A stretch of 64,000 nt of DNA from Escherichia phage phiP4: the sequence record PP993145.1, one strand, 5' to 3'. Position numbers and translations under genes: made by a program. Positions 14,389 to 56,670 of the stretch are shown here, piece by piece (within the stretch, counting starts at the first letter, position 1; the number at the start of each line of letters is the position of its first letter). The notes under the pieces are model-generated. The model ran no database searches. It was given only the letters and a program-made list of their open reading frames with translations, and had not been told where the DNA came from.

Positions 14389-14413
14389 AATATATTCTCA
14401 TACTGAATTAATT

Positions 14414-14490: not shown

Positions 14491-14499
14491 ATGATCTGT

Positions 14500-15098: not shown

Positions 15099-15165
15099 AT
15101 TTATTATCTTTCATAACGTGCAGCTACATGGTCGGAACCACAACACTTAAATCTAACTAATCGTT

Positions 15166-15408: not shown

Positions 15409-15440
15409 TTTATATAATTATTATACAGAACTTTTGGAAA

Positions 15441-15728: not shown

Positions 15729-15730
15729 TT

Positions 15731-15805
15731 TGGTGCACCCTGTTCGTATCGAACGAACCTCTCAAGCTCTTCAGGCAAGCGCTAATCCATCTCAGCTAAA
15801 GGTGC
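15731..15805 (-). tRNA. tRNA-Phe (GAA)
   Basis: Acceptor GCACCTT/AGGGTGC, D-arm GCTG-AGATGGAT-TAGC, T-arm GTTCG-TTCGATA-CGAAC, anticodon loop CTGAAGA; anticodon stem has two U-U mismatches. Confidence 0.45.
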
Positions 15806-15812
15806 AAATTTT

Positions 15813-15888
15813 TGGCAAACCTACTAGGACTCGAACCTAGACCGTACGGTTTTGGAGACCGACATGCTGTCCAGTAACACTCTAGGAA
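15813..15888 (-). tRNA. tRNA-Trp-like (CCA anticodon arm), acceptor not resolved
   Basis: Anticodon arm TCGGT-CTCCAAA-ACCGT matches E. coli tRNA-Trp, T-arm CTAGG-TTCGAGT-CCTAG, but no complementary 5' acceptor strand; 5' bound is a guess. Confidence 0.35.
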
Positions 15889-15897
15889 TGCAGGAAT

Positions 15898-15974
15898 TGG
15901 CGTCCTGTGAGGGGATCGAACCCGCAAATCCTACCTTGAAAGGGTAGTGACTTTACCAGTTTGTCTAACAGGAC
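15898..15974 (-). tRNA. tRNA-Glu (UUC)
   Basis: Acceptor GTCCTGT/ACAGGAC, anticodon arm CTACC-CTTTCAA-GGTAG. Confidence 0.65.
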
Positions 15975-15980
15975 TTAAAT

Positions 15981-16068
15981 TGGTGGGGAAAGATGGAGTC
16001 GAACCACCCGAGTCGCAATGACAACTGATTTACAGTCAGCTCTGCTACCACTTACAGAATATTTCCCC
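15981..16068 (-). tRNA. tRNA-Tyr (GUA), type II
   Basis: Acceptor GGGGAAA/TTTCCCC, anticodon arm GCTGA-CTGTAAA-TCAGT as in E. coli tRNA-Tyr, long variable arm, 88 nt. Confidence 0.65.
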
Positions 16069-16199
16069 ATATTTAGAAGTATTCAAAAAATTCTCATTTA
16101 AACACTTTTAAATATGTTTCCAAATTAGATAAATATTATATCAAGTTTTATAGCACTGAGCAAGTCAAATTTTAAAGAACTTGCTCAGTGCTGTATTAG

Positions 16200-16475
16200 T
16201 TAGTCGAACTTAGGAGTGACAGTTAAGGAGAATGGAAGTTCGAAAACTTCTTCACCCTCATCACTAACAGTAATTACACGACCTTTAAGTTCAGACATTG
16301 AAATATCAATATCAGCTTTTGCATCTGGAGCCATGCCAGCTTCAACACATTTAGCTTTAATTTCCGGTAGAAGTTCTACATCGTAGAAATAAAGCCATTC
16401 AATCTCACCTTCCCAGCCTTCCCAGGATTTACAGATTGCACTTTCAATACCAGCTGCTATAACACGATTTTGCAT
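16200..16475 (-). CDS. hypothetical protein
   Basis: 91-aa ORF. Confidence 0.4.
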   Translation of the reverse strand: MQNRVIAAGIESAICKSWEGWEGEIEWLYFYDVELLPEIKAKCVEAGMAPDAKADIDISMSELKGRVITVSDEGEEVFELPFSLTVTPKFD

Positions 16476-16565
16476 TCGTTAACTCCTCCATCAATTTATA
16501 TAACTATTATACCAGAAATTTAAAGCAAAAGGCAAGTACATTTTTAAAAATTCTGTTTGGAAGAG

Positions 16566-16772
16566 CTAAACTCCAGACTCTTCAGCCAAGTCTAGACTAA
16601 TAAGAGATATAGCCATAATTGCTGCTCCATGTTCTTTTTCTCCAGTTTCTTTAGCTAGAGTTATAATATCAAGAAATTGCTTATGAAAATCTGCAACCTC
16701 TTGAGTTAAACCCGCCTCAGCAATCATACCTTTAAGCATGAAACGTTGTGCGGTAATTTCAGGATTAGCCAT
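16566..16772 (-). CDS. hypothetical protein
   Basis: 68-aa ORF. Confidence 0.35.
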   Translation of the reverse strand: MANPEITAQRFMLKGMIAEAGLTQEVADFHKQFLDIITLAKETGEKEHGAAIMAISLISLDLAEESGV

Positions 16773-16947
16773 GTTGTTTCTCCAGTTTCATCTTTAATAG
16801 TCTACAAATAAAATCAATGTCTTCATCCGTGCCTAGATCTCTATCTTCAAGAGTTGCCTTGAAGTTTTTAGTCAATTCCATGAGAATAACTTCTCTAGAA
16901 CGACGTGTTGGCGGAGGTGGATGTCTATACATCTTATTTCCTTAATT

Positions 16948-17024
16948 TGGTAGGGGTGGTGGGATTCGAACCCACAAAACCTGAATTTTAAGTCCAGTAC
17001 CTATGCCAATTCGATTACACCCCC
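16948..17024 (-). tRNA. tRNA, anticodon UAA (Leu-type anticodon, short variable arm)
   Basis: Acceptor GGGGGTG/CACCCCT, T-arm GTGGG-TTCGAAT-CCCAC, anticodon arm GGAGT... CTGGA-CTTAAAA-TTCAG. Confidence 0.5.
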
Positions 17025-17125
17025 ATGTAATCAGTTTATTAGTTGATACATATTATAGCCTAGTGAAAATCCTACTACTAATCCCACAAACCAACCAATA
17101 TAATAATCTTTTAGTTTCACAGGTA

Positions 17126-17311
17126 TTATCCTCGTTCAATATCTAGGGAAATACCGCAGTTAGGATTAATACCTGTACCATTGCAATTTGCGCAAACCCA
17201 GATATTGCAAAAAGTATCTCCTGCTTCTGCATCAGAACTTTCACCAATTCCCCTACACTCAGGGCAGGCACATTCCTCTAGCTCTTGCTTGAGTTCTTGA
17301 AACTTGGACAT
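17126..17311 (-). CDS. Cys-rich small protein (putative Zn-binding)
   Basis: 61 aa with CACPEC and CANCNGTG clusters. Confidence 0.35.
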   Translation of the reverse strand: MSKFQELKQELEECACPECRGIGESSDAEAGDTFCNIWVCANCNGTGINPNCGISLDIERG

Positions 17312-17319
17312 ATAGTCTC

Positions 17320-17508
17320 CTAGTTAATTACTTTTGAGGCTTCTAAAGCATTGACGTAGTAAACATCTTCTACATTATACATATAGTCTACTACTTTGTC
17401 CATAGCATGGAGTTCAGATGTAGCCTTTACTAGTCTGTACCCTTGCTTAAACTCGTCCGAATGTTCTCTATCTTGTGCAAATTTAACAGAAACTATGAAT
17501 AATTCCAT
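17320..17508 (-). CDS. hypothetical protein
   Basis: 62-aa ORF. Confidence 0.35.
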   Translation of the reverse strand: MELFIVSVKFAQDREHSDEFKQGYRLVKATSELHAMDKVVDYMYNVEDVYYVNALEASKVIN

Positions 17509-17527
17509 TAGTTGTCCTTATTTAATT

Positions 17528-17605
17528 TGGTGGCTCCCCGAGGATTCGAACCTACGTACCTTCCGGTTATGAGCCGGGTGCTCATACCATATGAGCTTGA
17601 GAACC
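17528..17605 (-). tRNA. tRNA, anticodon CAU (Met-type)
   Basis: Acceptor GGTTCTC/GGGAGCC, D-arm GCTC-ATATGGTAT-GAGC, anticodon arm CCGG-CTCATAA-CCGG; T-stem weak. Confidence 0.5.
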
Positions 17606-17611
17606 AAAATC

Positions 17612-17700
17612 TGGCGGAAGAAGTGGGAATCGAACCCACAAGGCTATATTTCAAGCCGACAGATTAGCAATCTGCTGCAATACCGTTATGCTATTCTTCC
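17612..17700 (-). tRNA. tRNA-Ser (GCU), type II
   Basis: Acceptor GGAAGAA/TTCTTCC, anticodon loop TTGCTAA, long variable arm hairpin GGCT...AGCC, 89 nt. Confidence 0.65.
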
Positions 17701-17721
17701 GAATTTATAAGATATATTATA

Positions 17722-18291
17722 TTAGAAATTTAGCTTCATAGCAAGAAAATTTTTCAAGTTTTCGGTAGACATCTCATCCACATCTACAGGAGAAACAAAG
17801 CCGTTTAATTTTCTAGCAAATTTTTCACCTGCAGGGTCATTATCCCCGACAGCTACCAATTTAAAAGGTAATAATTTCAGTTGCTTTAATAACGCTTTTC
17901 CTGGAGAAGAACCCAACATTGCCAGGGCTGGATAACCAGCGTTATGTAACGCAACTGCCTTAAATACAGATTCAGCAATCAATACTACTTTTTCATCTCC
18001 ATTGAGAGTTTCTAGTCCCCATACACACTGGATAGTAGAATAAGTAAAATATTTAGCTTCAAATGGGCACTTACCATGACCTTTTGGAGCAGAAGGATTA
18101 TACGTCTGATAGCCTCTCAACATCCCAGAGAAGTCATACAACGGGACTGTTAGCCATCCTTCCGGACTTAACCAGCAATGATATTTATCTGTATCAAATC
18201 CTCTAGATAAGAGGTGCTGTGTTAGCTCATCAACATTCATATTTGGTTCCTCTCTCAAATTTATAGATATATTATACAGAGAATTTAGCAT
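17722..18291 (-). CDS. Toprim-domain protein (primase-core-like)
   Basis: 189 aa; conserved Glu segment VVLIAESVFKAVAL and DxD segment VAVGDNDPAGE typical of Toprim folds. Confidence 0.45.
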   Translation of the reverse strand: MLNSLYNISINLREEPNMNVDELTQHLLSRGFDTDKYHCWLSPEGWLTVPLYDFSGMLRGYQTYNPSAPKGHGKCPFEAKYFTYSTIQCVWGLETLNGDEKVVLIAESVFKAVALHNAGYPALAMLGSSPGKALLKQLKLLPFKLVAVGDNDPAGEKFARKLNGFVSPVDVDEMSTENLKNFLAMKLNF

Positions 18292-18409
18292 TCAAGCAAT
18301 CAAATTTTTTAACTTTTTAGAGGAAAATCATATGGCACTTAAGGGTAGCAGATAAGTGGTGAGGACCAAAATTTGTGACCCCACTAAAAATCCGGGGGTA
18401 ATTTTTAAA

Positions 18410-18450
18410 GACCCCTTGACATTTTCTCGGGGGTAGTGTAAAGTATACGT
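18410..18450 (+). promoter_or_regulatory. sigma70-type promoter
   Basis: TTGACA (18416-18421), 17-bp spacer, TAAAGT (18439-18444), upstream of the plus-strand three-gene unit. Confidence 0.5.
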
Positions 18451-18506
18451 TATGGATGAGTGATCAAAGAGACACACATTTTCTATATACTAGGAGGTGT
18501 CAAAAA

Positions 18507-19493
18507 ATGACAGAAGAAGTAGCTAAGAGTCCTGAGACCGTCGCTAGCGTTGCAGCAGAACTGCACCGTCACGAGGAATCGGATAAGAAAAAGTGGGAGA
18601 AGGTCAGAGCCTACGAAGAGAAACATCGCGAACACGACGATGAAGAAGATGACGATGATGAACATTGTCATAAATATGGAAAACATAAAATGCAAGAACC
18701 AGTAAACGTATTCACTAGTGGCTTCCCTGGCCTACTGGGTGGTTACCCAGCAAACGCAGGTGCTTTCGGTGGTGAAGGTATGGGACTATTCGGAGCTATC
18801 CTAATCGGTGCTCTATTAACAGGCGGATTCGGTGGTTTCGGTGGATTCGGTGGACGTGGTGTAGTTGGTGATGGTACCGCAGTTGATGCAGTACTTCAGA
18901 ACCAAGATACCGCTAGTATTCTAGCAGCTATTAACACTACTCGTACAGAAGCTAACCAGGGTACTGGAGCTGTTTTAAGCGCAGTTAACAATGGTTTTAG
19001 CCAGACATCCCAAAACCAGAGCCGTGATACTCAGTCTGTACTAACTACGATCTATGGTACAGGTGCTAATCTGTCTAATCAGATCTGCCAGGAAACTCGC
19101 AACGTTATTCAGGGTCAGTTCGATCTTTCTCGCCAGATTGATCAATCTTTCGCAGCTAACCAGATAGCTCGTGCACAAGATAAGTTTGATTCTGCACAGA
19201 TCGCTTTCCAGCAGACTTTACAAACTAATAACCAGTTTGCCGCTGTTCAGGCTCAGATGTGTGCTAACCAGAACTCTCTGGAACGTCAGATCGCTGAATG
19301 TTGCTGTGAACTTCAGACTGCGATCGCTGGTGTAACTACTGCGCGTATCCAGGATGAGTTAGACGCATGTCGCCTACGTGAAGCAATCGCTGCTGGTAGC
19401 GGTGCTAACGGTCAGGTAATTAATCAAATCGCTTTAAGTCTTGGTGCTATCACTCAGACTCTGGCTGGTCTGCAGGCTAAACTGCCGGCTTAA
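18507..19493 (+). CDS. Gly-rich membrane protein with Gln/Asn-rich C-terminal region
   Basis: Start ATG after AGGAGG; charged N-terminus, glycine-zipper TM (GLFGAILIGALLTGGFGGFGGFGG), long Q/N/A/T-rich domain; host-like codon usage. Confidence 0.6.
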   Translation: MTEEVAKSPETVASVAAELHRHEESDKKKWEKVRAYEEKHREHDDEEDDDDEHCHKYGKHKMQEPVNVFTSGFPGLLGGYPANAGAFGGEGMGLFGAILIGALLTGGFGGFGGFGGRGVVGDGTAVDAVLQNQDTASILAAINTTRTEANQGTGAVLSAVNNGFSQTSQNQSRDTQSVLTTIYGTGANLSNQICQETRNVIQGQFDLSRQIDQSFAANQIARAQDKFDSAQIAFQQTLQTNNQFAAVQAQMCANQNSLERQIAECCCELQTAIAGVTTARIQDELDACRLREAIAAGSGANGQVINQIALSLGAITQTLAGLQAKLPA

Positions 19494-19514
19494 TATTAAG
19501 GGGAGGAGCCCATT

Positions 19515-19919
19515 ATGAGTAAATATGGTTTTGTAAATAACGGACTTAATCAAAGTATGGGCTCCCAGCAGCCCATGCCGGGTCTGGATAACCCCTACTT
19601 ACAACAGTTGCAACAGCGTTTAGCAGAAGCGCAACAGATGCAGCAACAACTCCAGCAAAACCCTGGAAGTGTGAGTCCTATGCAAATGATGCAGCAAATG
19701 AGCGGGCAGTCGCAAATGCCTCAACAAATGCAGCAACAGGTGCCGCAGCAGCAAACCCAACAACCGCAGGTTTCTGCGGAAGGACAGGCAGTACTAGCCC
19801 TTTTCGAAGACTTCGCAAAGACAGAGGATGGGAAACAGCTTGTATCACTTATGGGTAAGTTTAATAGCTTCTGCCAAAGCCAAGTTGCAAAAGCTCAAAA
19901 TGGTGGTAATAACTCCTAA
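19515..19919 (+). CDS. Gln-rich low-complexity protein
   Basis: 134 aa, MQQ/QQL repeats; strong RBS GGGGAGGAG. Confidence 0.5.
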   Translation: MSKYGFVNNGLNQSMGSQQPMPGLDNPYLQQLQQRLAEAQQMQQQLQQNPGSVSPMQMMQQMSGQSQMPQQMQQQVPQQQTQQPQVSAEGQAVLALFEDFAKTEDGKQLVSLMGKFNSFCQSQVAKAQNGGNNS

Positions 19920-19928
19920 GGAGGAATT

Positions 19929-20123
19929 ATGTGTTGCAGAAAATCTGTTTCGTGCTGCCCAATGCCTGTAACACGTTGTTGCTCTCCAGCAATGTTTACG
20001 CAAATACCGGCGTTCAATCCGTTTGCCTTTAAACCTATTCTTATCCTGCCCCCTAGAGTAGATTTTCAGTCAAGATTGGCCTCCCGTATGGGTGGTTGCT
20101 GTACACCGAGAGTGTGGTTCTAA
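19929..20123 (+). CDS. small Cys-rich protein
   Basis: 64 aa with CC pairs (MCCRK..CC..CC..GGCC); RBS AAGGAGG. Confidence 0.45.
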   Translation: MCCRKSVSCCPMPVTRCCSPAMFTQIPAFNPFAFKPILILPPRVDFQSRLASRMGGCCTPRVWF

Positions 20124-20137
20124 ACCAAAAAACAAAA

Positions 20138-20170
20138 GCCCCTGCCGAAAGGTAAGGGGCTTTTTCTTTT
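20138..20170 (+). terminator. rho-independent terminator (plus-strand unit)
   Basis: Hairpin gcccct-gccgaaaggta-aggggc followed by TTTTTCTTTT. Confidence 0.65.
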
Positions 20171-20184
20171 GCCTTAAATACAGA

Positions 20185-20220
20185 AAAGCCCGCGCTCTCG
20201 GAGGAAACGCGGGCTTGGTT
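20185..20220 (-). terminator. rho-independent terminator (SPFH gene)
   Basis: Hairpin agcccgcg...cgcgggct with T-run on minus strand, downstream of 20240..21187. Confidence 0.6.
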
Positions 20221-20239
20221 CGAAGATTACGTGTAACTA

Positions 20240-21187
20240 TTACTTGTTACGCATATCCATGATCATTTGACCATCGTAGCCAGTACCTACCACAGTCTGA
20301 GGCACACCACCTTGATACTTCTGAGCACGAATCATTTCAACTTCCAGTTGCTTCCAGCGAATCATCTCAGGAGTAATGGTACGTTGCAATGCGGCGTTAG
20401 CTTCAGCTTCTTTTTTAGCTGCGTACAGTTTAGCATCTGCGTCACGTTCGTTAGCAATAGCCTGGTTATTACGGGCTTCACGGTCTGCTTCTGCCTGTTT
20501 AACTTTTTGCTGTGCTTCTTGTTCAACACGAGCCAACTCAGCTTTTGCAGCATTAACTTGCTCTTCACGAACTTTGGTATTCTGTACCTGTTCCATGATT
20601 ACTGGTGGCAGAGTAATATCCTGAAGGAATACCTGCTTAACTGTGTAACCATATGGGCGTGCATACTCTTCAACTTCTTGTTGAATTGCAGTTTGCAATT
20701 GAGCCTGAATTTTAGCATCAAACAAATCTTGTGCTTTAGGTACAGACTTACCAAACTCACGAATAGTAGACAGTAATTTTTCAGTTACATATTTGTCTAA
20801 CGCTTGATCCTGAGTACCCGCATTAATACGGTTAATCGGTGCCTTAGAACCATCAAACTGCAACATAACAGTCAGGTCAACAGTGGATTTAAACTTATCC
20901 TGGCTAGGAACCTGAAGTTTATCTAATTTTACAGCAATATCTTTTGTACTAAAAGTATCGAAAGATGCAAATGGGTTTACAAGATGGAAACCCGGTAATA
21001 CTGGGTTAGGATCTACTTTACCCAGAAATGTTTGGGTTTTAACCGTACCATCAGAAACAATAGTATATGAATTAAAGGCTAGAATCAAGCCTGCTAAACC
21101 AACTACAGCACCAATACCCCAACGTTTAATAGTACGAATTACTTTCTGCTCAGAAGTCAGTTCTTTCATATTTTTAGTATTAAACAT
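20240..21187 (-). CDS. SPFH/band-7 (stomatin-prohibitin-HflK/C-like) membrane protein
   Basis: 315 aa; N-terminal TM helix, SPFH-like core, C-terminal coiled coil rich in A/E/Q/K/R (AEADREARNNQAIANERDADAKL). Confidence 0.65.
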   Translation of the reverse strand: MFNTKNMKELTSEQKVIRTIKRWGIGAVVGLAGLILAFNSYTIVSDGTVKTQTFLGKVDPNPVLPGFHLVNPFASFDTFSTKDIAVKLDKLQVPSQDKFKSTVDLTVMLQFDGSKAPINRINAGTQDQALDKYVTEKLLSTIREFGKSVPKAQDLFDAKIQAQLQTAIQQEVEEYARPYGYTVKQVFLQDITLPPVIMEQVQNTKVREEQVNAAKAELARVEQEAQQKVKQAEADREARNNQAIANERDADAKLYAAKKEAEANAALQRTITPEMIRWKQLEVEMIRAQKYQGGVPQTVVGTGYDGQMIMDMRNK

Positions 21188-21221
21188 ATATTTCCTTTGT
21201 TTTAGTTACAGTTAATAAAAT

Positions 21222-21296
21222 TGGCCGAGGTGACAGGATTCGAACCTGCATAAAGGAATTTAGAAGACTCCTGCCTCTCCCTTAGACTACACCCCG
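21222..21296 (-). tRNA. tRNA-Arg (UCU)
   Basis: Acceptor CGGGGTG/CACCTCG, T-arm GCAGG-TTCGAAT-CCTGT, anticodon arm GGAGT-CTTCTAA-ATTCC. Confidence 0.6.
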
Positions 21297-23576: not shown

Positions 23577-24018
23577 AATAGCCTCGTTTCATCAATTTAA
23601 AAATATATTATACAGATAACTTAGTAAATTAGCAAATACATTTTTAAATTGTGAAACTAGTAAACCGATAAACAGCCTAGAGGCGCCACAGGCCATATCT
23701 TATGAGCCATGTACCTTTGATCTAGGGTTTGAATCATCAACGAATACTTTGCATCTTTTAGCTTTAGAAGTTTAGAAGTTTGAGTTCTTTAAACTTTTCA
23801 GCTTTCATACTTAAATGTTGATCTTTGAAGTTGTGTCGGTAATATCAACGACGCTTTGTTTTTACGTGTCAGATTAAATGTCTGATGTAATAAACATAAT
23901 CTCCAATAGATTATACTTTATAGTATGGTCAGCGGTCTTATTTAACCTCGTATTTCAACCGCTGCTGCGAGGTAAGATGCTTGGGCTTTCGTCTACCGAT
24001 TTACTAGCTTTTAAATTA

Positions 24019-24657
24019 TTACTCTACTTCAATGAAGGTAGAGGCGTTAGACTCGGACAGAACAAAGTCAACATTTGTTGCAAAGTCCTGGTATTCCTCG
24101 TCATGCTGCTTAATCAGCTTCTCCAGTTCCAGCGGATCAATCAAGAATGGAGTATTCTTGAGTTCCAGCAGATTGAGCTGCATTTTAACTTCATCTTCGG
24201 AAGTTTTCTTATCGCGGGTAGCCATGCTATCCTGCAAACGCTCATATTTAGCATCAAACTGTGCTTTCTGCGTATTAAACTTAACCGTAGCGGCATGGAA
24301 CTGCTTACGCATGTTAGCCAGCAGTTGAGCTTTAAGCTCCATAGAACGCTTAGCTTCAATTGCTTCCGCAACAGTCATTTTACGAGAACCGATCTCAACG
24401 ATTGTTTCTGCATTGCTCTTAATCAGAGCAGACTTGATACGATCACGCTGAGACATCATATCCAGCAGAGATTGGAAATCAGTCTTAATACGAGTAGACA
24501 GGTCATCTACTTCGATTGCAGCTCCAACTACAACCTGGTTTTTATCCTTACCTTCACCAACAGCAATCAGAAGCTGCTGTTCAGTAGCTTTACGGATTTT
24601 AGCTTCCAGAGATTTGATAGTTGCCAGAGCGCGAGTTTTAGAGATACGAGTAGTCAT
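24019..24657 (-). CDS. hypothetical protein, probably highly expressed
   Basis: 212 aa; strongly E. coli-optimal codons (ctg, cgt, ggt, aaa, gaa); antisense ORF 23878..24690 judged spurious. Confidence 0.55.
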   Translation of the reverse strand: MTTRISKTRALATIKSLEAKIRKATEQQLLIAVGEGKDKNQVVVGAAIEVDDLSTRIKTDFQSLLDMMSQRDRIKSALIKSNAETIVEIGSRKMTVAEAIEAKRSMELKAQLLANMRKQFHAATVKFNTQKAQFDAKYERLQDSMATRDKKTSEDEVKMQLNLLELKNTPFLIDPLELEKLIKQHDEEYQDFATNVDFVLSESNASTFIEVE

Positions 24658-24710
24658 TATTTGCTTCCTTATATGAAGTTTGAGATTTGAATTTATTTAA
24701 AGTTGGTCTA

Positions 24711-26262: not shown

Positions 26263-26778
26263 TTACTTCGCTTTACGCTTGCTAGCTGGTTTAGCAGATT
26301 TACGAGCAGAATCACCCGTGAACTTAATGCCTACACCGTAACACAGAGCGCGAACGTTATCTTTACTATACTCTACGCCAAAGATATTTGGCTTAACAGA
26401 ACCAAACTGTCCACGAGCATCACGTAGTACGTCTGCCGTTGGTTTACGCTTCTGGTTAACTGCTTTCTCATAGTCTTTCATAGCCATACCATTACGAGAG
26501 AACAATTCAGCCCCAGCGTTGAAGCTCAGGGAAACTGGGGCAGATTTGTGGCCGTAATTTTCTACATACATAACCATTTTGTAGGATTTACGGGTGGCAT
26601 TTTTAGCTTTAGGCTTCTGACGAATCGGAGCCGGATTATTCAGTGCTTGTGCAGCCTGAGCATCGGTAGGATGCTTACGCAGGTGGCGTTCCAGACGAGC
26701 TTTGCGATTAGCTTCGGTCTGCGGGAAAGTTTTAACTGCCGGAGCTGCTTGAGTTTTTGCGTTTTTCTGTTTAGCCAT
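26263..26778 (-). CDS. basic protein, probably highly expressed
   Basis: 171 aa, Lys/Arg/Ala-rich termini, host-optimal codons. Confidence 0.5.
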   Translation of the reverse strand: MAKQKNAKTQAAPAVKTFPQTEANRKARLERHLRKHPTDAQAAQALNNPAPIRQKPKAKNATRKSYKMVMYVENYGHKSAPVSLSFNAGAELFSRNGMAMKDYEKAVNQKRKPTADVLRDARGQFGSVKPNIFGVEYSKDNVRALCYGVGIKFTGDSARKSAKPASKRKAK

Positions 26779-44591: not shown

Positions 44592-45002
44592 ATGACTACT
44601 CCAACTCAGTGGACTGATGAACTGTTCGAAAAAATGTCTTCCGAATACGTTGCTCGTATGGAGCAATTCCCCGAGGATGAACGTCCGGGTGTTAGCATGG
44701 AAATTGTTAGCGAAATTGCCCAGGAAAATGGTGTAACTCCGAACGGTTTTCGTATGAAGCTGACTAAAGCAGGTTTGTATATCAAGAAAGCTGCTGGCTC
44801 CGCTTCTAAATCTAGCGCATCTACTGGAGAAAAAGCTTCTGGTGGTTCTCGTACTTCCAAAGCTCAAGCTCATGCCGATCTTCGTTCAGCATTCTCTGAT
44901 GCTGGCCTAGCACCAGATTTTCTGGATGATGCAATTATCGACAAACTGACCGGTAAAGCGGCCGCTCATCTGGCAGAAGCAATCCGAGCTATCACTAAGT
45001 AA
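44592..45002 (+). CDS. hypothetical protein, probably highly expressed
   Basis: 136 aa; strong RBS, host-optimal codons. Confidence 0.55.
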   Translation: MTTPTQWTDELFEKMSSEYVARMEQFPEDERPGVSMEIVSEIAQENGVTPNGFRMKLTKAGLYIKKAAGSASKSSASTGEKASGGSRTSKAQAHADLRSAFSDAGLAPDFLDDAIIDKLTGKAAAHLAEAIRAITK

Positions 45003-45039
45003 TTTTTAGATAAATCCACCAACAAAAGGAACTACAGTT

Positions 45040-45336
45040 ATGACCAAAGCTGAAATTATCGCACAATGTGAAAAATTTGGTGAGTTTTATCTTCATTACG
45101 AGAAACTTCGTCAGAAAGGAACCACGTACCTTCAGGGTACGATGGAATTTGATCCAGCCCAAGATAAATATCTGGCTGAGCGTATTAAACGTGAACGTAT
45201 TCGTAAAGCGAAAGATGATGAGATCCTTGTCTTCTCTCGTACTAATGATAGCTTCCGTTTTATTCCTGTCGAGAAAGTCCGTCGTGTGACTAGCCTCCAA
45301 TCAGAGTTAGATCGTGCTTCTCCAGTAGGCCGATAA
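45040..45336 (+). CDS. hypothetical protein
   Basis: 98-aa ORF. Confidence 0.45.
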   Translation: MTKAEIIAQCEKFGEFYLHYEKLRQKGTTYLQGTMEFDPAQDKYLAERIKRERIRKAKDDEILVFSRTNDSFRFIPVEKVRRVTSLQSELDRASPVGR

Positions 45337-45345
45337 GAAACCAAT

Positions 45346-45376
45346 TAGCCCCTATATGGGGCTTTTTGTGTATTTG
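45346..45376 (+). terminator. rho-independent terminator
   Basis: Hairpin agcccc-tatat-ggggct followed by TTTTTGTGT. Confidence 0.6.
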
Positions 45377-45386
45377 GGATATGTAA

Positions 45387-45695
45387 ATGAGCGAACAGGT
45401 AAATCAAAACTATGAAGGACACGTTGATGACCAGTCCATCATACTTTGGGAGAAGGAGGGAGAACAAGTAAGATTAACAGTATCTGAATTTCGTGGGAAT
45501 CTATACATGGGTATTCGTTACTGGCTTCTTGATATTAATGATGAATGGTTTCCAACGAAATCTGGCTTCTCTTTTCCTTACACCCTAGAAACAACATCAC
45601 AGCTTTTCTACGCGTTTACACAGATTCTTAGCGAATCTGAGGTTTTGCATGAAGTACAGAAACGAGCTGAAGAACTCAAAGCCAAGAATGCCTAG
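45387..45695 (+). CDS. hypothetical protein
   Basis: 102-aa ORF. Confidence 0.45.
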   Translation: MSEQVNQNYEGHVDDQSIILWEKEGEQVRLTVSEFRGNLYMGIRYWLLDINDEWFPTKSGFSFPYTLETTSQLFYAFTQILSESEVLHEVQKRAEELKAKNA

Positions 45696-45712
45696 TTCTT
45701 GGCTTTTTCTTT
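45681..45712 (+). terminator. rho-independent terminator
   Basis: Hairpin gccaagaa...ttcttggc followed by TTTTTCTTT. Confidence 0.55.
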
Positions 45713-45714
45713 AT

Positions 45715-45760
45715 AAATGTATTTGCTTTCAACTCAGTTTTGTTATATAATATTTATATA
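45715..45760 (+). promoter_or_regulatory. T5-type early promoter
   Basis: TTGCTT (45723-45728), 17-bp spacer, TATAAT (45746-45751). Confidence 0.55.
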
Positions 45761-45782
45761 AATTAATGAGAGATATAAATAA

Positions 45783-46754
45783 ATGACTAATGTAAAAGAA
45801 TTTATTAAACGCTGTCAAGAAGCATATTATCAAGGCATGTCTTTAATCTCTGATGAAGAATATGATCGTCTTATTAAAAGATTCCCACTAGAGGAAGAGA
45901 TTGGGCCTAAGGGTGATATTCCACATCTGTATCGTATGTATTCTTTACAGAAAGTTTATTATAATCGTGGAGATAAACCTCCGTTTAACCCATTAGGTCA
46001 GGTAGAAACTGATAAGTTAGATGGTTGTGCGATTTCTCTGCTATATATTAATGGAGAATTTGTTCAAGCATTAACTCGTGGTAATGGTATTCTAGGGAAT
46101 GATGTCACAAGCAACGTAAGATTGCTGAACATCCCTAAAAAGATCTCCCAAAAAGTACCTACTCAAATCACTGGTGAAGTTCTAATTACAAAAGAAGTAG
46201 AAAATAAACGTAACTTTGCCTCTGGTGCTATTAACCTCAAAGATAGTGATGATTTCGTACAACGTATCGGAGAAGGTGGTTTAATCTTCGTTGCATACGG
46301 TATCCAGTGTTCTGCTGAATCTGTAGGTATTACAGAAGCATATTTAAAAGATATGCTTTGGCTGGAGAATGAGAACTTCTTAACAGTTGTTAATGTGCGT
46401 TCCTTCTTTAAATGGATTCCGACGGACGGTAAAGTTGTTCGTATTAATGATAACAACAAATTCTTTCGTGAAGGCTGGACTAATAAATTTCCTCGTGGCG
46501 CATTCGCTATTAAAGAAGATGAAGAAGGCGAAATTACAACTCTTACTAAAGTTGAATGGCAGGTAGGGGCTTCTGGTAAAGTAACTCCAGTTGGTTATTT
46601 CGAACCGGTAATTATTGATGATGCTACAATTGTTAAAGCGACTCTTAATAACGTTGATTATATTAACTCTCTTGATCTAGAGATCGGTTGCCAGATTCGA
46701 GTAATTCGTGCTGGTGGTGTAATCCCGTGTATAGTAGAGCGAGTATACGATTAA
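45783..46754 (+). CDS. ligA: NAD-dependent DNA ligase, N-terminal portion (adenylation and OB domains)
   Basis: 323 aa; KxDG adenylation motif DKLDGCAISLLY and TRGNGILGNDVTSNV block; ORF ends before the Zn-finger region. Confidence 0.75.
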   Translation: MTNVKEFIKRCQEAYYQGMSLISDEEYDRLIKRFPLEEEIGPKGDIPHLYRMYSLQKVYYNRGDKPPFNPLGQVETDKLDGCAISLLYINGEFVQALTRGNGILGNDVTSNVRLLNIPKKISQKVPTQITGEVLITKEVENKRNFASGAINLKDSDDFVQRIGEGGLIFVAYGIQCSAESVGITEAYLKDMLWLENENFLTVVNVRSFFKWIPTDGKVVRINDNNKFFREGWTNKFPRGAFAIKEDEEGEITTLTKVEWQVGASGKVTPVGYFEPVIIDDATIVKATLNNVDYINSLDLEIGCQIRVIRAGGVIPCIVERVYD

Positions 46755-46799
46755 TACATAACCCTTTGCTACCCATCTACCATATCGGAATTATAAAGT

Positions 46800-46842
46800 G
46801 GTTATTGACATTTTCGCCGCTTAGGTATATACTATTATCATT
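46800..46842 (+). promoter_or_regulatory. sigma70-type promoter inside the ligase gap
   Basis: TTGACA (46805-46810), 17-bp spacer, TATACT (46828-46833). Confidence 0.5.
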
Positions 46843-46889
46843 CAGTTGAGGGATAGAAAGTTATGGCGAGGGTAAGCAAAGTTAGTTAA

Positions 46890-46935
46890 AATTGTAGTTG
46901 CTAAATGCTTAAATACTTGCTATAATATTTATATA
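46890..46935 (+). promoter_or_regulatory. T5-type early promoter inside the ligase gap
   Basis: TTGCTA (46898-46903), 17-bp spacer, TATAAT (46921-46926). Confidence 0.5.
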
Positions 46936-46953
46936 AATTGATAAGGAAGAAAT

Positions 46954-47727
46954 TTGATGAAAATCGAAATTCCAACACAATGTCCCTCTTGTGGTTCTAA
47001 GCTAGATCTTGTCAACGGACAATTATTCTGTCGGAATAAGTCCAACTGTCCAGCGCAATCAAGTAAGTTAATTGAGAACTTCTGTACAAAAATGAAGTTA
47101 AAGGGCTTTGGTCCGAAAACTATTGAGAAGCTGGAGCTGACGAAGATTTCAGAACTATTTTACCTAACCGAAGAAGATTTGGTTAGAGCCGTGGGTAGCA
47201 AGGTTGCCGCTAAGTTAATTAGCGAATTAAATACTAAAGTTCGCGGAGACATTGACTTTGGTTCAGTTCTCGGTTCTTTAGGAATCCCTCTAATCGGAGA
47301 GGTTGCAGCAAAGAAATTATCCCAAAATTGCACTAGCTTCCACGATGTGAAGGCTGACGGCAAGGCTGGAGAAAACTACAAAGCCTGGCTAAATTCCCCA
47401 CAAGGCAAGGATGTTATCGAACTACCGTGGAAATTCTCAACTGGTGCTAAAGCTAAAACCGTCGTTACTGATGATTTAGTTGCCCAGCCAAATGGAATCG
47501 TGGTATGTATTACCGGATCTTTGCAAGATTTTGCAAATCGAACGGATGCAACAAACTATTTAGAAAGTCTAGGATATACGGTTAAGAAATCCGTTACCAA
47601 AGACGTCAAATACCTAATCTGTGAGGATGAATCAAAACGTTCCTCCTCATCTTATAAGAAAGCCGAAACGAATGGGATAGAAATCCTGTCGATTAAAGAA
47701 CTATTGGAGAAAAATAATAATGTCTAA
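46954..47727 (+). CDS. ligA: NAD-dependent DNA ligase, C-terminal portion (Zn finger, HhH, BRCT-like)
   Basis: 257 aa; Cys4 Zn finger CPSCGS...CRNKSNCPAQ directly at the N-terminus as in LigA domain 3. Confidence 0.7.
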   Translation: MMKIEIPTQCPSCGSKLDLVNGQLFCRNKSNCPAQSSKLIENFCTKMKLKGFGPKTIEKLELTKISELFYLTEEDLVRAVGSKVAAKLISELNTKVRGDIDFGSVLGSLGIPLIGEVAAKKLSQNCTSFHDVKADGKAGENYKAWLNSPQGKDVIELPWKFSTGAKAKTVVTDDLVAQPNGIVVCITGSLQDFANRTDATNYLESLGYTVKKSVTKDVKYLICEDESKRSSSSYKKAETNGIEILSIKELLEKNNNV

Positions 47728-48487
47728 ACTGAACTGGAACGTAGAAGGTGTAACCGAGTCTCTGAAAGCAAAAGCCACTGCTCTGGGTGTTGCTGTAATC
47801 TCTCAAGAACAAGTAGCTGCTATCGCTGCTGAACTGGCCGCTGAAACTGGCAAAGATGTTACCGCTCGCTCTGTTGGCTCTAAACTGCGTAAAGAAGGTT
47901 TTGAAGTACAGAAAGCTAATGAAGTACAGAAATCTCCGTGGACTCCTGAGCAGGAAGCTGAACTGGTTGATTTCCTGAACGCTCATGCTGGTCAGTATAC
48001 CTATGCTGAAATCGCTGCTGCTGTAGCTGGTGGTCAGTTCGGTGCTAAGCAGGTACAGGGTAAGATCCTGAGTCTGGAAATGACCGCTTCTGTTAAGCCA
48101 ACCGAAAAAGCTGCTGCTGTTCGTTCCTTCACTCCGGATGAAGAAACTGATTTTGTTAATCAGGTTGTTGCCGGTGCTACTATTGAAGCTATCGCTGCTC
48201 ACTTCGGTCGCAATATTAAGCAGATCCGTGGTAAAGCTCTGAGCCTGCTTCGTGAAGGTCGTATCGCTGCTATGCCGGTACAGGAAACTTCAAGTGCTAA
48301 AACTCGTGAAGATCTGTTAGAAGGTCTGGATCTGGTTAACATGACTGTTGCTGAGATCGCTGAGAAAACTGGTAAGTCTGAGCGTGGTGTTAAATCTATG
48401 CTGTCTCGTCGTGGTCTGGTTGCTAAGGACTATGATGGTGCCGCTAAGCGTGCTAAACTGGATGCAAAAGCTGCGGCTGCTGAATAA
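47720..48487 (+). CDS. abundant repeat-containing protein (possible DNA-binding protein)
   Basis: 255 aa; four internal repeats of an (E/A)IAxxxGxx...K.LSL..G unit; extreme host-optimal codon bias. Confidence 0.55.
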   Translation: MSKLNWNVEGVTESLKAKATALGVAVISQEQVAAIAAELAAETGKDVTARSVGSKLRKEGFEVQKANEVQKSPWTPEQEAELVDFLNAHAGQYTYAEIAAAVAGGQFGAKQVQGKILSLEMTASVKPTEKAAAVRSFTPDEETDFVNQVVAGATIEAIAAHFGRNIKQIRGKALSLLREGRIAAMPVQETSSAKTREDLLEGLDLVNMTVAEIAEKTGKSERGVKSMLSRRGLVAKDYDGAAKRAKLDAKAAAAE

Positions 48488-48503
48488 TCTGGTAAATTAA
48501 ACC

Positions 48504-48540
48504 TAAGGGGAGGGGGCTATGCTCCTTCCCCTTTTTGCAT
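48504..48540 (+). terminator. rho-independent terminator
   Basis: Hairpin aggggaggg...ccttcccct followed by TTTTGC. Confidence 0.5.
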
Positions 48541-48569
48541 TTAGAAGGCACGAAAGCGTGCAAAGGAGA

Positions 48570-50042
48570 ATGACCTTGTTTAACGTGCAAGCTGTAGTGT
48601 TGAAGATGCTTCTAGCTTCCGAACAGAAGCAAATAGCATTGGAAACATTCTCAAAACTGCATAAAGATCATTTTAATGACGCTTTCTCCTCAATTTACCA
48701 AGCCGTCCAGAATTATTATAAAAAATATAACACAATGCCGTCCATTGACGCACTTATGCTTGAAGCTAATAGGAACGCCCGCCTTTCTCAAGCCCTAGTC
48801 GTCTTAGCTAACACTCAAATTCCAGAAGTGAGCATGGAACAGGCACTTGAAGTCCTAGAGGCCGAATATACACAGGATTTATTCCTGAAGCTTCTAGAAA
48901 CAGACGTGCTTCAAGATTTAACAATGCTGGATCAGGGAGAAATTCTCAACCGAGTTGCCTCCCTTCACTTAAAATTAGAAGAGAAAGTAACGAATACTGG
49001 AAAAGTATTCAACGCAGATAACATGCGTATTTTCCAGAGAGAAGAAGATACCAAACTGAACTTAATCGCTCTTGGTATTTGTAATGAGTTCGACGCTCAA
49101 ATTGGTTTAGCTCGCACAGAAACGTTACTGCTTGGTGGTTGGCGTGGTACTGGTAAATCCATTATCTGTTCAAACATACAGGTTCAGCAATATTTGAATG
49201 GGGATATTGCTCCATACTTCTCAATTGAGATGAAAGAACATGAAGTATTTAGACGTAATCTAGCCATGTTAGCTGGTGTATCAGCATTAGCAATGCGTAA
49301 TAATACTCTAGAAGGTGCAGCTCTATTGAGATTAGCCAGAACTAGAGCTAGAATGTTTAATGGGGGTGAAGAGCTTTTCGATAACTTCGTTAAACAGTAT
49401 ACAATGGCTAAGATGAGTGATTTCTACGATATGGAGAGTAAGCTAATAGAAGGGTATGAGCTACATACTCCTATGATTATTGTTTATGACCCTGAGCTGT
49501 CTATTACAACAGTTGACGTAGAATTAAATAAATTAGTTGCTAGATATGGAGATAAAGTTACAGTAGCTTTACTGGACTATATTAACCAAACCCGACTTCC
49601 AGACTCTAAAACCATTGATATGTATGACTGGAAAGAACAGATGGTTGTTAGCTCGTCTTTCAAATCTATCTGCCAGAAACATAACGTGGCTGGTGTAGCT
49701 CCTTACCAGATCGATCAAGATGGTAGAACACGTATGTCAAAGGGGATTCTTGATTCCGCAGACATGGCTGCTAATCTTAATGCTGCAAAAGCTGATAATG
49801 GTCAAGGTGCCATTATGTTTGACTTCGTTAAGACTCGTTCTTCTGATAGCGTGAAGTTTATGCCTAAAATGAACTGGGAAACTCTGCGAATGGATAACAC
49901 TACCAACCTAGCAATGGAAGATATATCTCAAATGGAAGCTGAGTTCGTTATCCCTATTGAGAAGGATAAGCCGGCTCAACCTAAACGTGCTAAGAAAGAC
50001 AAAACTGAAAATTCAACAGGTGAACAGGCCAGCGATATATGA
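48570..50042 (+). CDS. DnaB-like replicative helicase
   Basis: Start at MTLFNVQ after AAGGAGA; RecA-like core with Walker A GWRGTGKS. Confidence 0.65.
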   Translation: MTLFNVQAVVLKMLLASEQKQIALETFSKLHKDHFNDAFSSIYQAVQNYYKKYNTMPSIDALMLEANRNARLSQALVVLANTQIPEVSMEQALEVLEAEYTQDLFLKLLETDVLQDLTMLDQGEILNRVASLHLKLEEKVTNTGKVFNADNMRIFQREEDTKLNLIALGICNEFDAQIGLARTETLLLGGWRGTGKSIICSNIQVQQYLNGDIAPYFSIEMKEHEVFRRNLAMLAGVSALAMRNNTLEGAALLRLARTRARMFNGGEELFDNFVKQYTMAKMSDFYDMESKLIEGYELHTPMIIVYDPELSITTVDVELNKLVARYGDKVTVALLDYINQTRLPDSKTIDMYDWKEQMVVSSSFKSICQKHNVAGVAPYQIDQDGRTRMSKGILDSADMAANLNAAKADNGQGAIMFDFVKTRSSDSVKFMPKMNWETLRMDNTTNLAMEDISQMEAEFVIPIEKDKPAQPKRAKKDKTENSTGEQASDI

Positions 50043-55619: not shown

Positions 55620-55904
55620 ATGCTTACAGAGCCTGATGCTCACCAATTATTGGTCGGTTCCTCATTCATTTTGAATGAATCAACAATAGTTGATAATCCA
55701 AATAAATTGTCTAATAGACAACTGGCAGAATATCTAGGAATTTTAAGTCTACGAAATTATGCCGAATACAAGTTTACAAACGATCCTAGTTTGGACATAC
55801 AATATGTTCCAGTATGGATACCACGTTTAGTAATCGACACTAACCCACTAATCGCAATTAACAAATCGAAATTAATCTTTAAAGAGGAAATAAAATATGG
55901 CTAA
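55620..55904 (+). CDS. hypothetical protein
   Basis: 94-aa ORF. Confidence 0.4.
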   Translation: MLTEPDAHQLLVGSSFILNESTIVDNPNKLSNRQLAEYLGILSLRNYAEYKFTNDPSLDIQYVPVWIPRLVIDTNPLIAINKSKLIFKEEIKYG

Positions 55905-56670
55905 GTCTTGGGGCGAAACTACTGGCGGTTCTAACGATAAAATCGAATTCCTGAAGTTCAACAACGGCATCACTCGTGTTCGTATCGTTTCTGGTGTTCT
56001 TCCACGTTATGTCTATTGGCTGACTAATAAAGAGGGTAATGTAGCTCCTTTCGAATGTCTCCGTTTTAACCGTGACAAAGAGAGTTTTGTTCGTGGTAAA
56101 GCTGATCCGGTTCATGAGATGGGCTTCTTCGAGAAAGAGCTGGATAAAGATGGTAATCGTGTTCCACTGAAGCCGAAGAAAAACTATATCGCTTTTGTTA
56201 TCGACCGTTCTGATAACAAACTGAAAGTAATGGAAGTCAAGGCTACTATCCTGAAAGGCATTCAGTCTATCATGAAGCAGTTGAGTCTGGCAACTCCGTT
56301 TGATATTGATATTTCTATCGAGAAAAAAGGTAAAGGTTTCGATACTGAGTATGATGTACAGCAGATTGCTGCTATGCAGTTCCAGATTAAGCTGCAAGAT
56401 CCTAACAGTGCAGAATCTAAGCAATATGCTGCAGATGTAGATCTGATCGGTGAAGCTATGTGTGATGAAGATGGCGACATCATTAAGTTCGAAAAAGTTC
56501 CTTCTCTGGAACAAACCTATCCGGTTCCTACCTATGAAGAGCAGAAAGAAGCAATTCTAGCCTTCATGGAGGGTCGTGAGAATAAAGATGATGATGCCAA
56601 ATCTGGTAATAGCAATGCAGGTTCCCAGAAAGGTATTGACTCAGAAGCTGCAAGCGATCTGGACGACTAA
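55897..56670 (+). CDS. putative ssDNA-binding-like protein (acidic C-terminal tail)
   Basis: 257 aa; host-optimal codons; C-terminus GIDSEAASDLDD is acidic like SSB tails. Functional call is inference. Confidence 0.35.
   Translation: MAKSWGETTGGSNDKIEFLKFNNGITRVRIVSGVLPRYVYWLTNKEGNVAPFECLRFNRDKESFVRGKADPVHEMGFFEKELDKDGNRVPLKPKKNYIAFVIDRSDNKLKVMEVKATILKGIQSIMKQLSLATPFDIDISIEKKGKGFDTEYDVQQIAAMQFQIKLQDPNSAESKQYAADVDLIGEAMCDEDGDIIKFEKVPSLEQTYPVPTYEEQKEAILAFMEGRENKDDDAKSGNSNAGSQKGIDSEAASDLDD

What the first reader, a model, noticed from the sequence alone, without database searches (positions are those of the whole stretch)
47720..48487. Highly codon-optimised protein built from four internal repeats
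The gene uses almost exclusively host-preferred codons, unlike neighbouring AT-rich genes, and encodes four copies of a roughly 45-aa unit with an (E/A)IAxxxG ... K.LSL..G signature reminiscent of small helix-turn-helix modules. This suggests an abundant early DNA-binding or host-takeover protein. Several other genes share this codon bias (24019-24657, 26263-26778, 44592-45002, 55897-56670).
Basis: seen in the sequence. Interest (0 to 1): 0.35.

Follow-up and report, generated by a model that had tools for sequence, protein, structure and literature searches.

The report
Phage T5 D5 DNA-binding protein gene

Summary
The ORF 47720-48487 (+) encodes a 255-aa protein that is 254/255 identical to gene D5 of coliphage T5. 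D5 is an early double-stranded-DNA-binding protein needed for phage DNA replication and late transcription.

The observations were checked as follows.
- **Codon bias:** confirmed. Its codon adaptation index against E. coli ribosomal-protein and elongation-factor genes is 0.773, rank 1 of 94 ORFs, with z = 13.4 against re-encoding with the window's average codons.
- **Bias is gene-specific and tracks the host:** D5 orthologues in a Vibrio phage and a Proteus phage are also the most biased gene of their regions, each with different preferred codons.
- **Expression:** in published RNA-seq of the close relative Bas33, the D5 orthologue has the highest transcript level of all phage genes I could read.
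- **Four repeats:** real, but only the second and third are obvious from one sequence. Profile comparisons and a confident AlphaFold model show four small helix-turn-helix modules plus a conserved C-terminal helix.
- **Closest known domain:** the DNA-binding domain of Caulobacter GcrA.

The most likely mechanism is that one abundant polypeptide coats duplex phage DNA through four major-groove readers. The gene and its function are already known. The module-level architecture and the host-tracking codon bias are modest additions.

The parts
47720..48487 (+). D5 coding sequence (255 aa, 27.0 kDa, pI 6.8; 45 Ala). It is the most codon-adapted gene of the window.
   Evidence: ORF. It is 254/255 identical to T5 D5 and matches PHROG 323 'transcriptional regulator, D5-like' at E = 1.5e-71. 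CAI is 0.773 and ENC is 30.8.
47706..47709 (+). GGAG ribosome-binding site, 10 nt before the ATG. The D5 start overlaps the ligB stop by 8 nt (ATGTCTAA).
   Evidence: Read directly from the sequence and the ORF coordinates.
47729..47911 (+). HTH module 1 (residues 4-64): helices 11-22, 29-43 and 49-58. Conserved W6 and helix-3 motif R50-S-V-G-S-K55-L-R57.
   Evidence: AlphaFold model, pLDDT 91-95 over these residues. Invariant columns. Profile alignments to modules 2-4.
47930..48091 (+). HTH module 2 (residues 71-124): helices 76-88, 95-101 and 109-118. Begins with W74-T-P-E; helix-3 motif Q113-G-K-I-L-S-L.
   Evidence: R2-R3 hhalign gives 96% probability and E = 4e-9. Smith-Waterman z = 7.8.
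48119..48277 (+). HTH module 3 (residues 134-186): helices 139-150, 155-162 and 166-179. Helix-3 motif R170-G-K-A-L-S-L-L-R-E-G.
   Evidence: This is the module shown aligned to the GcrA DNA-binding domain.
48296..48439 (+). HTH module 4 (residues 193-240), the most divergent. Helices 210-217 and 221-231 form the HTH; the model gives no N-terminal helix. Motif G223-V-K-S-M-L-S-R-R-G232.
   Evidence: Pfam Sigma70_r4_2 scores 28.7 bits against a cut-off of 25.7, at residues 204-230.
48437..48481 (+). Conserved C-terminal helix (residues 240-254, GAAKRAKLDAKAAAA), preceded by invariant D237 and G240. By inference, a possible protein-protein contact site.
   Evidence: Helix in the model. Conservation. 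The function is inferred, not tested.
46805..46926 (+). Two strong sigma-70 promoter matches: TTGACA-17-TATACT at 46805-46833 and TTGCTA-17-TATAAT with an upstream TG at 46898-46926. They lie before ligB, at the position of T5 promoters P-K28b and P-K28a, and probably drive the ligB-D5 transcript.
   Evidence: Scan. T5 record annotation. High ligB and D5 transcript levels in Bas33.
46954..47727 (+). ligB (NAD-dependent DNA ligase subunit B). It is co-transcribed with D5 but has ordinary codon usage (CAI 0.32).
   Evidence: The Bas33 orthologue has 10,850 / 7,448 TPM.
48505..48543 (+). Intrinsic-terminator-like hairpin (13-bp stem, 8 G-C pairs, then TTTGCATTT) 18 nt after the D5 stop.
   Evidence: In Bas33 the transcript level falls about 20-fold after D5, from 22,868 to 860 and 1,103 TPM for the next two genes.

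Best explanation
The gene encodes the D5 protein of a T5-like phage (genus Tequintavirus).

**Expression.** It is transcribed with ligB from two strong early promoters and is followed by a terminator. It has its own ribosome-binding site. Its codons are those of the host's most highly expressed genes, so it is made in very large amounts soon after the second-step DNA transfer.

**Architecture.** The protein is a string of four small helix-turn-helix modules. Three are three-helix bundles and the fourth is divergent. Their nearest structural and profile relative is the GcrA DNA-binding domain. The modules are joined by 10-15-residue linkers and end in a conserved helix.

**Proposed mechanism (inferred).** Each module places its basic third helix, which carries the conserved (R/Q)-G-K-x-L motif, in the major groove. 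One monomer then contacts several successive turns of duplex DNA with little sequence preference. At high copy number the protein coats the phage genome.

**Known consequences.** These come from T5 genetics and were not retested here. Replication can proceed, early genes are shut off and late genes are turned on.

**What is shown and what is inferred.**
- Shown here: identity, expression signals, codon adaptation, four-module architecture and conservation of the third helices.
- Inferred: the coating mode and how it switches transcription.
For: **Identity and context**
- The protein is 254/255 identical to T5 D5.
- It matches PHROG 323 at E = 1.5e-71.
- The gene order ligA, ligB, D5, helicase, primase, polymerase is kept in T5, Vibrio phage River4 and Proteus phage PM135.
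- The family occurs in 902 phage records.
- The T5 record describes D5 as a DNA-binding protein required for DNA replication and late transcription, and involved in shutoff.

**High expression**
- CAI is 0.773, rank 1 of 94, z = 13.4. ENC is 30.8, the lowest of 57.
- D5 orthologues are rank 1 of 39 (River4) and rank 1 of 31 (PM135) by ENC. Their preferred Leu codons differ: CTA 70% and TTA 64%, against CTG 89% here.
- The Bas33 orthologue bas33_0040 has 22,868 / 16,641 TPM, about twice any other Bas33 gene I read.
- Promoters and a terminator bracket ligB-D5.

**Architecture**
- The AlphaFold model has mean pLDDT 92 and shows four helical modules.
- Profile-profile repeat tests support four units. 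The unit profile finds four stretches per D5-like protein.
- The unit profile hits GcrA in a search of all PDB sequences at E = 0.0097. A direct hhalign comparison gives 95.4% probability and E = 1.7e-8.
- Non-D5 proteins found by the unit profile carry strong Pfam GcrA matches.
- 23 of the 44 invariant or nearly invariant columns lie in the four third-helix regions, which make up 25% of the sequence (p = 1.6e-5).
- The conserved G-K aligns with GcrA G38-K39. G38 and its neighbours contact DNA in the GcrA-DNA crystal structures (PMC5887438).

**DNA binding by experiment (others' work)**
- D5 is a 26-kDa monomer. AlphaFold3 predicts that it binds retron msDNA through an HTH, and in vitro it remodels the retron-Kva2 complex (bioRxiv 10.64898/2026.07.11.737809).
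- From my own memory and not verified here: Rice et al. 1979 (J Biol Chem) and Fujimura & Roop 1983 (J Virol) reported abundant, cooperative binding to duplex DNA and inhibition of T5 polymerase at nicks.
Against: - No experiment in reach shows that all four modules touch DNA, or that binding is non-specific.
- The relative orientation of the modules is not predicted with confidence (pTM 0.49).
- The whole chain has no significant match in the PDB by Foldseek.
- The protein is near neutral overall (pI 6.8), and modules 1-3 have net charge 0, -2 and 0. That is unusual for a pure DNA-coating protein.
- Module 4 lacks the first helix in the model.
- The Bas33 data measure RNA at one time point (20 min), not protein.
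- I read only 7 of the roughly 17 pre-early Bas33 genes.
- One retron escape phage is reported to carry a W74 stop codon in D5 and still forms plaques. That sits uneasily with an essential gene.
Confidence: 0.7

Rival explanations
1. D5 is mainly a sequence-specific transcription factor. It would work as a late-gene activator or an RNA-polymerase cofactor in the manner of GcrA or sigma region 4, recognising late promoters rather than coating DNA.
For: - Module 4 passes the Pfam Sigma70_r4_2 cut-off (28.7 against 25.7 bits).
- The unit is closest to the GcrA DNA-binding domain.
- GcrA is a sigma-70 cofactor (PMC5887438).
- D5 is required for late transcription, and many records annotate it as a 'transcription factor'.
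Against: - There is no sigma region 2 and no GcrA sigma-interacting domain.
- The extreme codon adaptation and top transcript level exceed what a site-specific regulator needs.
- From memory and unverified: the early biochemistry reported cooperative binding to duplex DNA in general.
Confidence: 0.2
2. The codon bias does not reflect expression. It would instead come from recent transfer of the gene from the host, or from the Ala-rich amino-acid composition and local base composition.
For: GC content is 47.5% against about 39% for the window. Ala makes up 45 of 255 residues.
Against: - The CAI re-encoding null keeps the amino-acid sequence and still gives z = 13.4.
- D5 codons fit E. coli ribosomal-protein usage (-1.10 bits per codon) better than weakly expressed E. 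coli genes (-1.53) or the rest of the phage (-1.31).
- The flanking genes are ordinary.
- In the phage collection the family was found in phages of about 104-128 kb, and every record whose taxonomy I fetched is Demerecviridae.
- Orthologues in Vibrio and Proteus phages are equally biased, but toward other codons.
- RNA-seq shows top expression.
Confidence: 0.02
3. The four-repeat appearance is a by-product of low-complexity, Ala-rich helical sequence rather than of duplicated domains.
For: - Two of six single-sequence pair tests are not significant.
- The short DNA repeats are only GCT-rich fragments.
Against: - Profile alignments put all modules in one register.
- The model gives four discrete helix-turn-helix modules with pLDDT above 90.
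- The unit matches an independent solved domain, GcrA, over its full length.
- Conserved residues recur at the same helix-3 positions.
Confidence: 0.03

Closest known systems
Bacteriophage T5 gene D5 product (T5.118, YP_006946.1; PHROG 323 'transcriptional regulator, D5-like')
   Same: It is 254/255 identical, with the same length, the same position between ligB and the D6 helicase, and the same upstream promoters.
   Different: One substitution (A25 here, D25 in T5). This is the same protein in a close relative of T5.
Caulobacter crescentus GcrA, N-terminal DNA-binding domain (PDB 5YIU; Pfam PF07750)
   Same: - It has the same sequence pattern: W-T/S-x-E ... I-A ... G ... G-K-x-x-x-L.
- The profile match covers the whole domain.
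- GcrA binds duplex DNA as a monomer in the major groove.
   Different: - D5 has four such domains in tandem, where GcrA has one.
- D5 lacks the GcrA linker and its sigma-70-interacting C-terminal domain.
- D5 does not reach the Pfam GcrA threshold.
- Nothing is known about any preference of D5 for methylated DNA.
Tandem Myb/SANT and homeodomain-like DNA-binding arrays (c-Myb R1R2R3, SNAPc4, Tc3/Mos1 bipartite domains)
   Same: - Several three-helix HTH units sit on one chain, each with a recognition helix, so one monomer spans several turns of DNA.
- There are weak Pfam Myb and HTH_23 matches.
   Different: - D5 lacks the regularly spaced tryptophan triad of Myb repeats.
- The Pfam Myb score is below the cut-off (17.6 against 24.4 bits).
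- Those proteins are sequence-specific and of low abundance, whereas D5 is expressed at very high level.
Abundant phage and bacterial duplex-DNA coating proteins (phi29 p6; HU and other nucleoid-associated proteins)
   Same: By analogy only: a very abundant early protein that binds duplex DNA and affects both replication and the early-to-late transcription switch.
   Different: The fold is unrelated. D5 uses four HTH modules on a monomer (26 kDa by mass photometry) rather than small dimers or multimers. No homology was tested or is claimed.

Membership tests
T5 D5 protein family (PHROG 323) | Full-length sequence match to the family profile and to T5 D5 | tested here: met
   PHROG 323 at E = 1.5e-71 over residues 1-253. 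254/255 identical to T5 D5.
T5 D5 protein family (PHROG 323) | Position in the early replication module, between ligase subunit B and the replicative helicase | tested here: met
   Window ORF order. The same order is found in T5, River4, PM135 and Bas33.
T5 D5 protein family (PHROG 323) | Binds double-stranded DNA; required for replication and late transcription | not testable with these tools
   This rests on the T5 record note, the title of McCorquodale 1979 and the retron preprint.
T5 D5 protein family (PHROG 323) | Very high early expression | tested here: met
   CAI rank 1 of 94. The orthologue bas33_0040 has the highest TPM of the Bas33 genes I read. Protein abundance itself was not measured.
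GcrA family (Pfam PF07750) | N-terminal three-helix DNA-binding domain fold | tested here: met
   [not shown]
GcrA family (Pfam PF07750) | Match to the Pfam GcrA model above its gathering score | tested here: not met
   There is no GcrA hit for the whole protein at E up to 1. GcrA is not among the 25 families shown (of 52 matched) for the single units.
GcrA family (Pfam PF07750) | C-terminal sigma-70-interacting domain | tested here: not met
   The model shows four HTH modules plus one 15-residue helix, which leaves no room for that domain, and no Pfam match covers it.
GcrA family (Pfam PF07750) | Preference for N6-methyladenine GANTC sites | not testable with these tools
   This needs binding assays.
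Sigma-70 family | Region 4 helix-turn-helix | tested here: met
   Sigma70_r4_2 scores 28.7 bits against a cut-off of 25.7, at residues 204-230, covering only profile positions 23-49 of 54.
Sigma-70 family | Region 2 (core binding and -10 recognition) | tested here: not met
   There is no Sigma70_r2 match at E up to 1. D5 is therefore not a sigma factor.
Myb/SANT repeat proteins | Pfam Myb_DNA-binding match above cut-off, and the spaced tryptophan triad | tested here: not met
   The Myb score is 17.6 bits against 24.4. There is only one Trp each in modules 1 and 2 (W6, W74) and none in modules 3 and 4 (sequence).

The most novel reading that the evidence does not exclude
D5 may do more than act as a replication and transcription accessory. 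It would be the unidentified non-specific factor that keeps replicating T5-like phage DNA free of host Dam, Dcm and restriction-modification methylation. In this reading, four GcrA-type major-groove readers on an extremely abundant protein occupy the groove and exclude methyltransferases and nucleases. The same coating would switch promoters from early to late. This fits three points:
- Methylation avoidance is reported for both Tequintavirus and Epseptimavirus, and its cause is unknown. A protecting DNA-binding protein had earlier been proposed, but for T5's insensitivity to restriction (PMC10644984).
- D5 is the top-expressed gene.
- The D5 unit resembles a domain that reads adenine-methylation sites.

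Nothing here tests it.
Probability: 0.1. Interest if true: 0.6.

Novelty: already known. Interest (0 to 1): 0.22.

Why it matters
The gene itself is textbook T5 biology, so the finding adds no new element. Three points are still useful.
- **Codon adaptation marks abundance.** It picked out exactly the five early genes that are among the six most highly transcribed genes of a close relative that I read.
- **Selection on expression is old and strong.** The bias follows the host's codon preference in distant D5 orthologues.
- **A concrete structural hypothesis.** D5 as four tandem GcrA-like HTH modules offers a testable model for a protein whose mechanism has been unclear since the 1970s. D5 has also recently been reported as a trigger of a retron defence system.

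Tried and rejected
- **Whole-protein profile against PDB sequences.** It gave only a weak hit to a designed homeodomain (E = 0.002).
- **Pfam on the whole protein and on single units.** It gave only generic HTH families and no GcrA.
- **DNA-level repeats in the gene.** Only short GCT-rich fragments turned up, so there is no recent duplication.
- **Rfam on 45000-49500.** Nothing reached a family threshold.
- **Antisense ORF 47693-48202 (169 aa).** It has no PHROG match. I rejected it as a by-product of the sense strand's codon bias.
- **Horizontal transfer from the host, or amino-acid composition, as the cause of the bias.** Rejected.
- **Sigma-factor identity.** Rejected for lack of region 2.
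- **Literature.** McCorquodale 1979 (PMC353123) is not held. Searches for other D5 biochemistry papers found nothing usable. The DRT4 paper concerns T5 ORF55, not D5. No paper in the library links GcrA with T5-like phages.
- **Biopython's built-in E. coli codon index.** It is absent, so I derived weights from MG1655 genes. They correlate at r = 0.98 with the Sharp-Li table as I recalled it.

Full report
**What the window is.** The 768-base stretch matches 512 phage records, 424 of them at 95% identity or more, all T5-like phages of Escherichia, Salmonella, Klebsiella and relatives. The T5 reference record shows the same gene order as the window: D2, D3, ligA, ligB, D5, D6 helicase, primase, polymerase, D10, D11. 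The ORF 47720-48487 (+) is 254/255 identical to T5 gene D5. It matches PHROG 323 'transcriptional regulator, D5-like' at E = 1.5e-71. The T5 record describes D5 as a DNA-binding protein required for DNA replication and late transcription, and involved in shutoff.

**Codon bias.** I derived codon weights from 29 ribosomal-protein, EF-Tu, EF-G and rpoA genes of E. coli MG1655.
- D5 has a codon adaptation index (CAI) of 0.773. That matches E. coli rpsC (0.787) and rplB (0.766) and is far above the weakly expressed gsp genes (0.23-0.39).
- It ranks first of 94 non-overlapping ORFs in the window (mean 0.366, sd 0.104).
- Re-encoding the same protein with the window's average codon usage gives 0.411 +/- 0.027, so the observed value lies 13.4 sd above that null.
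- Leu is 89% CTG (16% elsewhere in the window), Ala 84% GCT, Gly 89% GGT and Arg 83% CGT.
- Measures that need no host reference agree. The effective number of codons (ENC) is 30.8, the lowest of 57 genes.
- The genes that touch D5 are ordinary: ligB 0.32 and D6 0.337. The bias therefore belongs to the gene, not to the region.
- D5 codons fit the E. coli ribosomal-protein set better than weakly expressed E. coli genes or the rest of the phage. This argues against simple transfer from the host.

**Does the bias mean expression?** Two independent tests say yes.
- *Orthologues in other hosts.* In Vibrio phage River4 (48% identity) and Proteus phage PM135 (55% identity), D5 is again the most biased gene of its 40-kb region (ENC 30.7, rank 1 of 39; ENC 36.8, rank 1 of 31). 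The favoured Leu codon changes to CTA and TTA respectively. In River4 the next most biased genes are D3, D11 and D2.
- *Published RNA-seq.* Data exist for Bas33 (phage HildyBeyeler) at 20 min after infection (PMC13250531, Dataset S1). Its D5 orthologue bas33_0040 is 99.2% identical and reaches 22,868 and 16,641 TPM. That is about twice the next genes and four to five times the major capsid gene. Of the pre-early genes I read seven, and the highest was 12,199.
- *The other named genes.* Their orthologues are also among the most transcribed: D3 10,586; bas33_0075 8,541; bas33_0071 7,677; D11 4,996.
- *Correlation.* Across 13 gene pairs CAI and TPM correlate (Spearman 0.57, p = 0.04). This is a selected set. 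The one outlier is ligB, which shares D5's transcript.

**Expression signals.** Two strong sigma-70 promoter matches lie before ligB (46805-46833 and 46898-46926), at the position of T5 promoters P-K28b and P-K28a. A 13-bp G+C-rich hairpin with a T tract follows D5 at 48505-48533. D5 has its own GGAG site, and its ATG overlaps the ligB stop codon. In Bas33 the transcript level drops about 20-fold after D5.

**The repeats.**
- From the single sequence, only modules 2 and 3 are plainly related (z = 7.8). Three other pairs are marginal and two are not significant.
- With a 38-sequence family alignment, profile-profile comparison aligns all four segments in one register. R2-R3 reaches 96% probability.
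- The AlphaFold model is confident locally (mean pLDDT 92) but not globally (pTM 0.49). This is what flexibly linked domains give.
- The model shows three three-helix bundles (residues 11-58, 76-118 and 139-179), a fourth HTH (210-231) without a first helix, and a C-terminal helix (240-254).
- Invariant residues concentrate in the third helix of each module: 23 of 44 conserved columns lie in 25% of the sequence, p = 1.6e-5.
- A profile of the unit finds four stretches in nearly every full-length D5-like protein among 1.8 billion representatives.

**What the unit is.**
- Proteins outside the D5 family that the unit profile finds carry strong Pfam GcrA matches. Several hold 5 to 22 units.
- The GcrA domain is a three-helix bundle that resembles sigma region 4 and binds duplex DNA as a monomer in the major groove. 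G38 and its neighbours contact the DNA (PMC5887438). These residues align with the conserved G-K of the D5 modules.
- That resemblance explains the Pfam Sigma70_r4_2 hit on module 4.
- D5 is not a GcrA family member. It fails the Pfam model and has no sigma-interacting domain. It is not a sigma factor either, because it has no region 2.

**Mechanism.** The best-supported reading is a very abundant monomer. A preprint reports 26 kDa by mass photometry, an AlphaFold3-predicted HTH contact with retron msDNA, and remodelling of the retron-Kva2 complex in vitro. Such a monomer would lay up to four recognition helices along duplex DNA and, at high copy number, coat the phage genome.
- From memory and not verified here, the 1979-1983 biochemistry (Rice et al.; Fujimura & Roop) described cooperative binding to duplex DNA and blocking of T5 polymerase at nicks.
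- How coating leads to early shutoff and late transcription remains inferred.
- The main rival is a site-specific late activator. It fits the fold but not the expression level or the missing polymerase-binding domain.

**Other strand and neighbours.** The 169-aa antisense ORF 47693-48202 has no family match. It is what a strongly biased sense strand produces. Rfam finds nothing in 45000-49500.

**Verdict.** The object is already known as T5 D5. Two points appear new, and I found neither in the searchable library:
- the explicit four-module, GcrA-like architecture;
- the host-tracking codon adaptation.

Interest is low to modest.

Noticed in passing
window 23878-24690 (+) versus 24019-24657 (-): The antisense ORF (270 aa) is longer than the real gene on the minus strand (212 aa). 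The real gene is 96% identical to bas33_0075, has CAI 0.645 and is highly transcribed in Bas33. The antisense ORF has no PHROG match and CAI 0.312. A length-based gene caller would pick the wrong strand.
   Followed up: yes
window 48505-48576: The terminator-like hairpin after D5 contains the ATG (48519) that corresponds to the D6 helicase start in the T5 reference record. Bas33 annotates a 488-aa helicase. That length fits a start at TTG 48576, preceded by AAAGGAGA at 48562-48569, or at ATG 48570. The T5 start is therefore probably annotated too far upstream.
   Followed up: partly
window 9209-21296 (-): There are 22 phage tRNA genes. The A-ending codons that these tRNAs read directly (ACA, CAA, TCA, CTA, GCA, CCA, TTA, AGA) make up 5.7% of the relevant codons in D5, against 32.7% (sd 7.6) in 52 other genes. 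The top-expressed early genes therefore lean on host tRNAs, and the rest of the genome on phage tRNAs.
   Followed up: partly
proteins P0174, P0184, P0190, P0198, P0201 (library hits of the D5 repeat profile): Outside the D5 family there are proteins with 5 to 22 tandem copies of the same GcrA-like HTH unit. Some end in a full-length GcrA match (P0184 and P0198). Their origin and function were not examined.
   Followed up: partly
window 24019-24657 (-): The matching PHROG 1491 is labelled 'tail fiber protein'. However, the gene sits in the early region, is codon-optimised, and its Bas33 orthologue is among the most transcribed genes I read at 20 min. The label is doubtful.
   Followed up: partly
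window 26263-26778 (-): A very basic 171-aa protein of unknown function (PHROG 4516). It has CAI 0.617, and its orthologue bas33_0071 reaches about 7,700 TPM. It is another abundant early protein with no assigned role.
   Followed up: partly
window 45783-46754 and 46954-47727 (+): The NAD-dependent DNA ligase is split into two genes, ligA and ligB, with two strong promoters in the 200-base gap, as in T5. As a result ligB is transcribed about five times more than ligA in Bas33 (10,850 against 1,966 TPM).
   Followed up: no
literature: bioRxiv 10.64898/2026.07.11.737809: A retron escape phage is reported with a premature stop (W74*) in D5, yet it still forms plaques. That is hard to square with D5 being essential. 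Possible explanations are read-through, a mixed phage population, or a functional N-terminal fragment.
   Followed up: no
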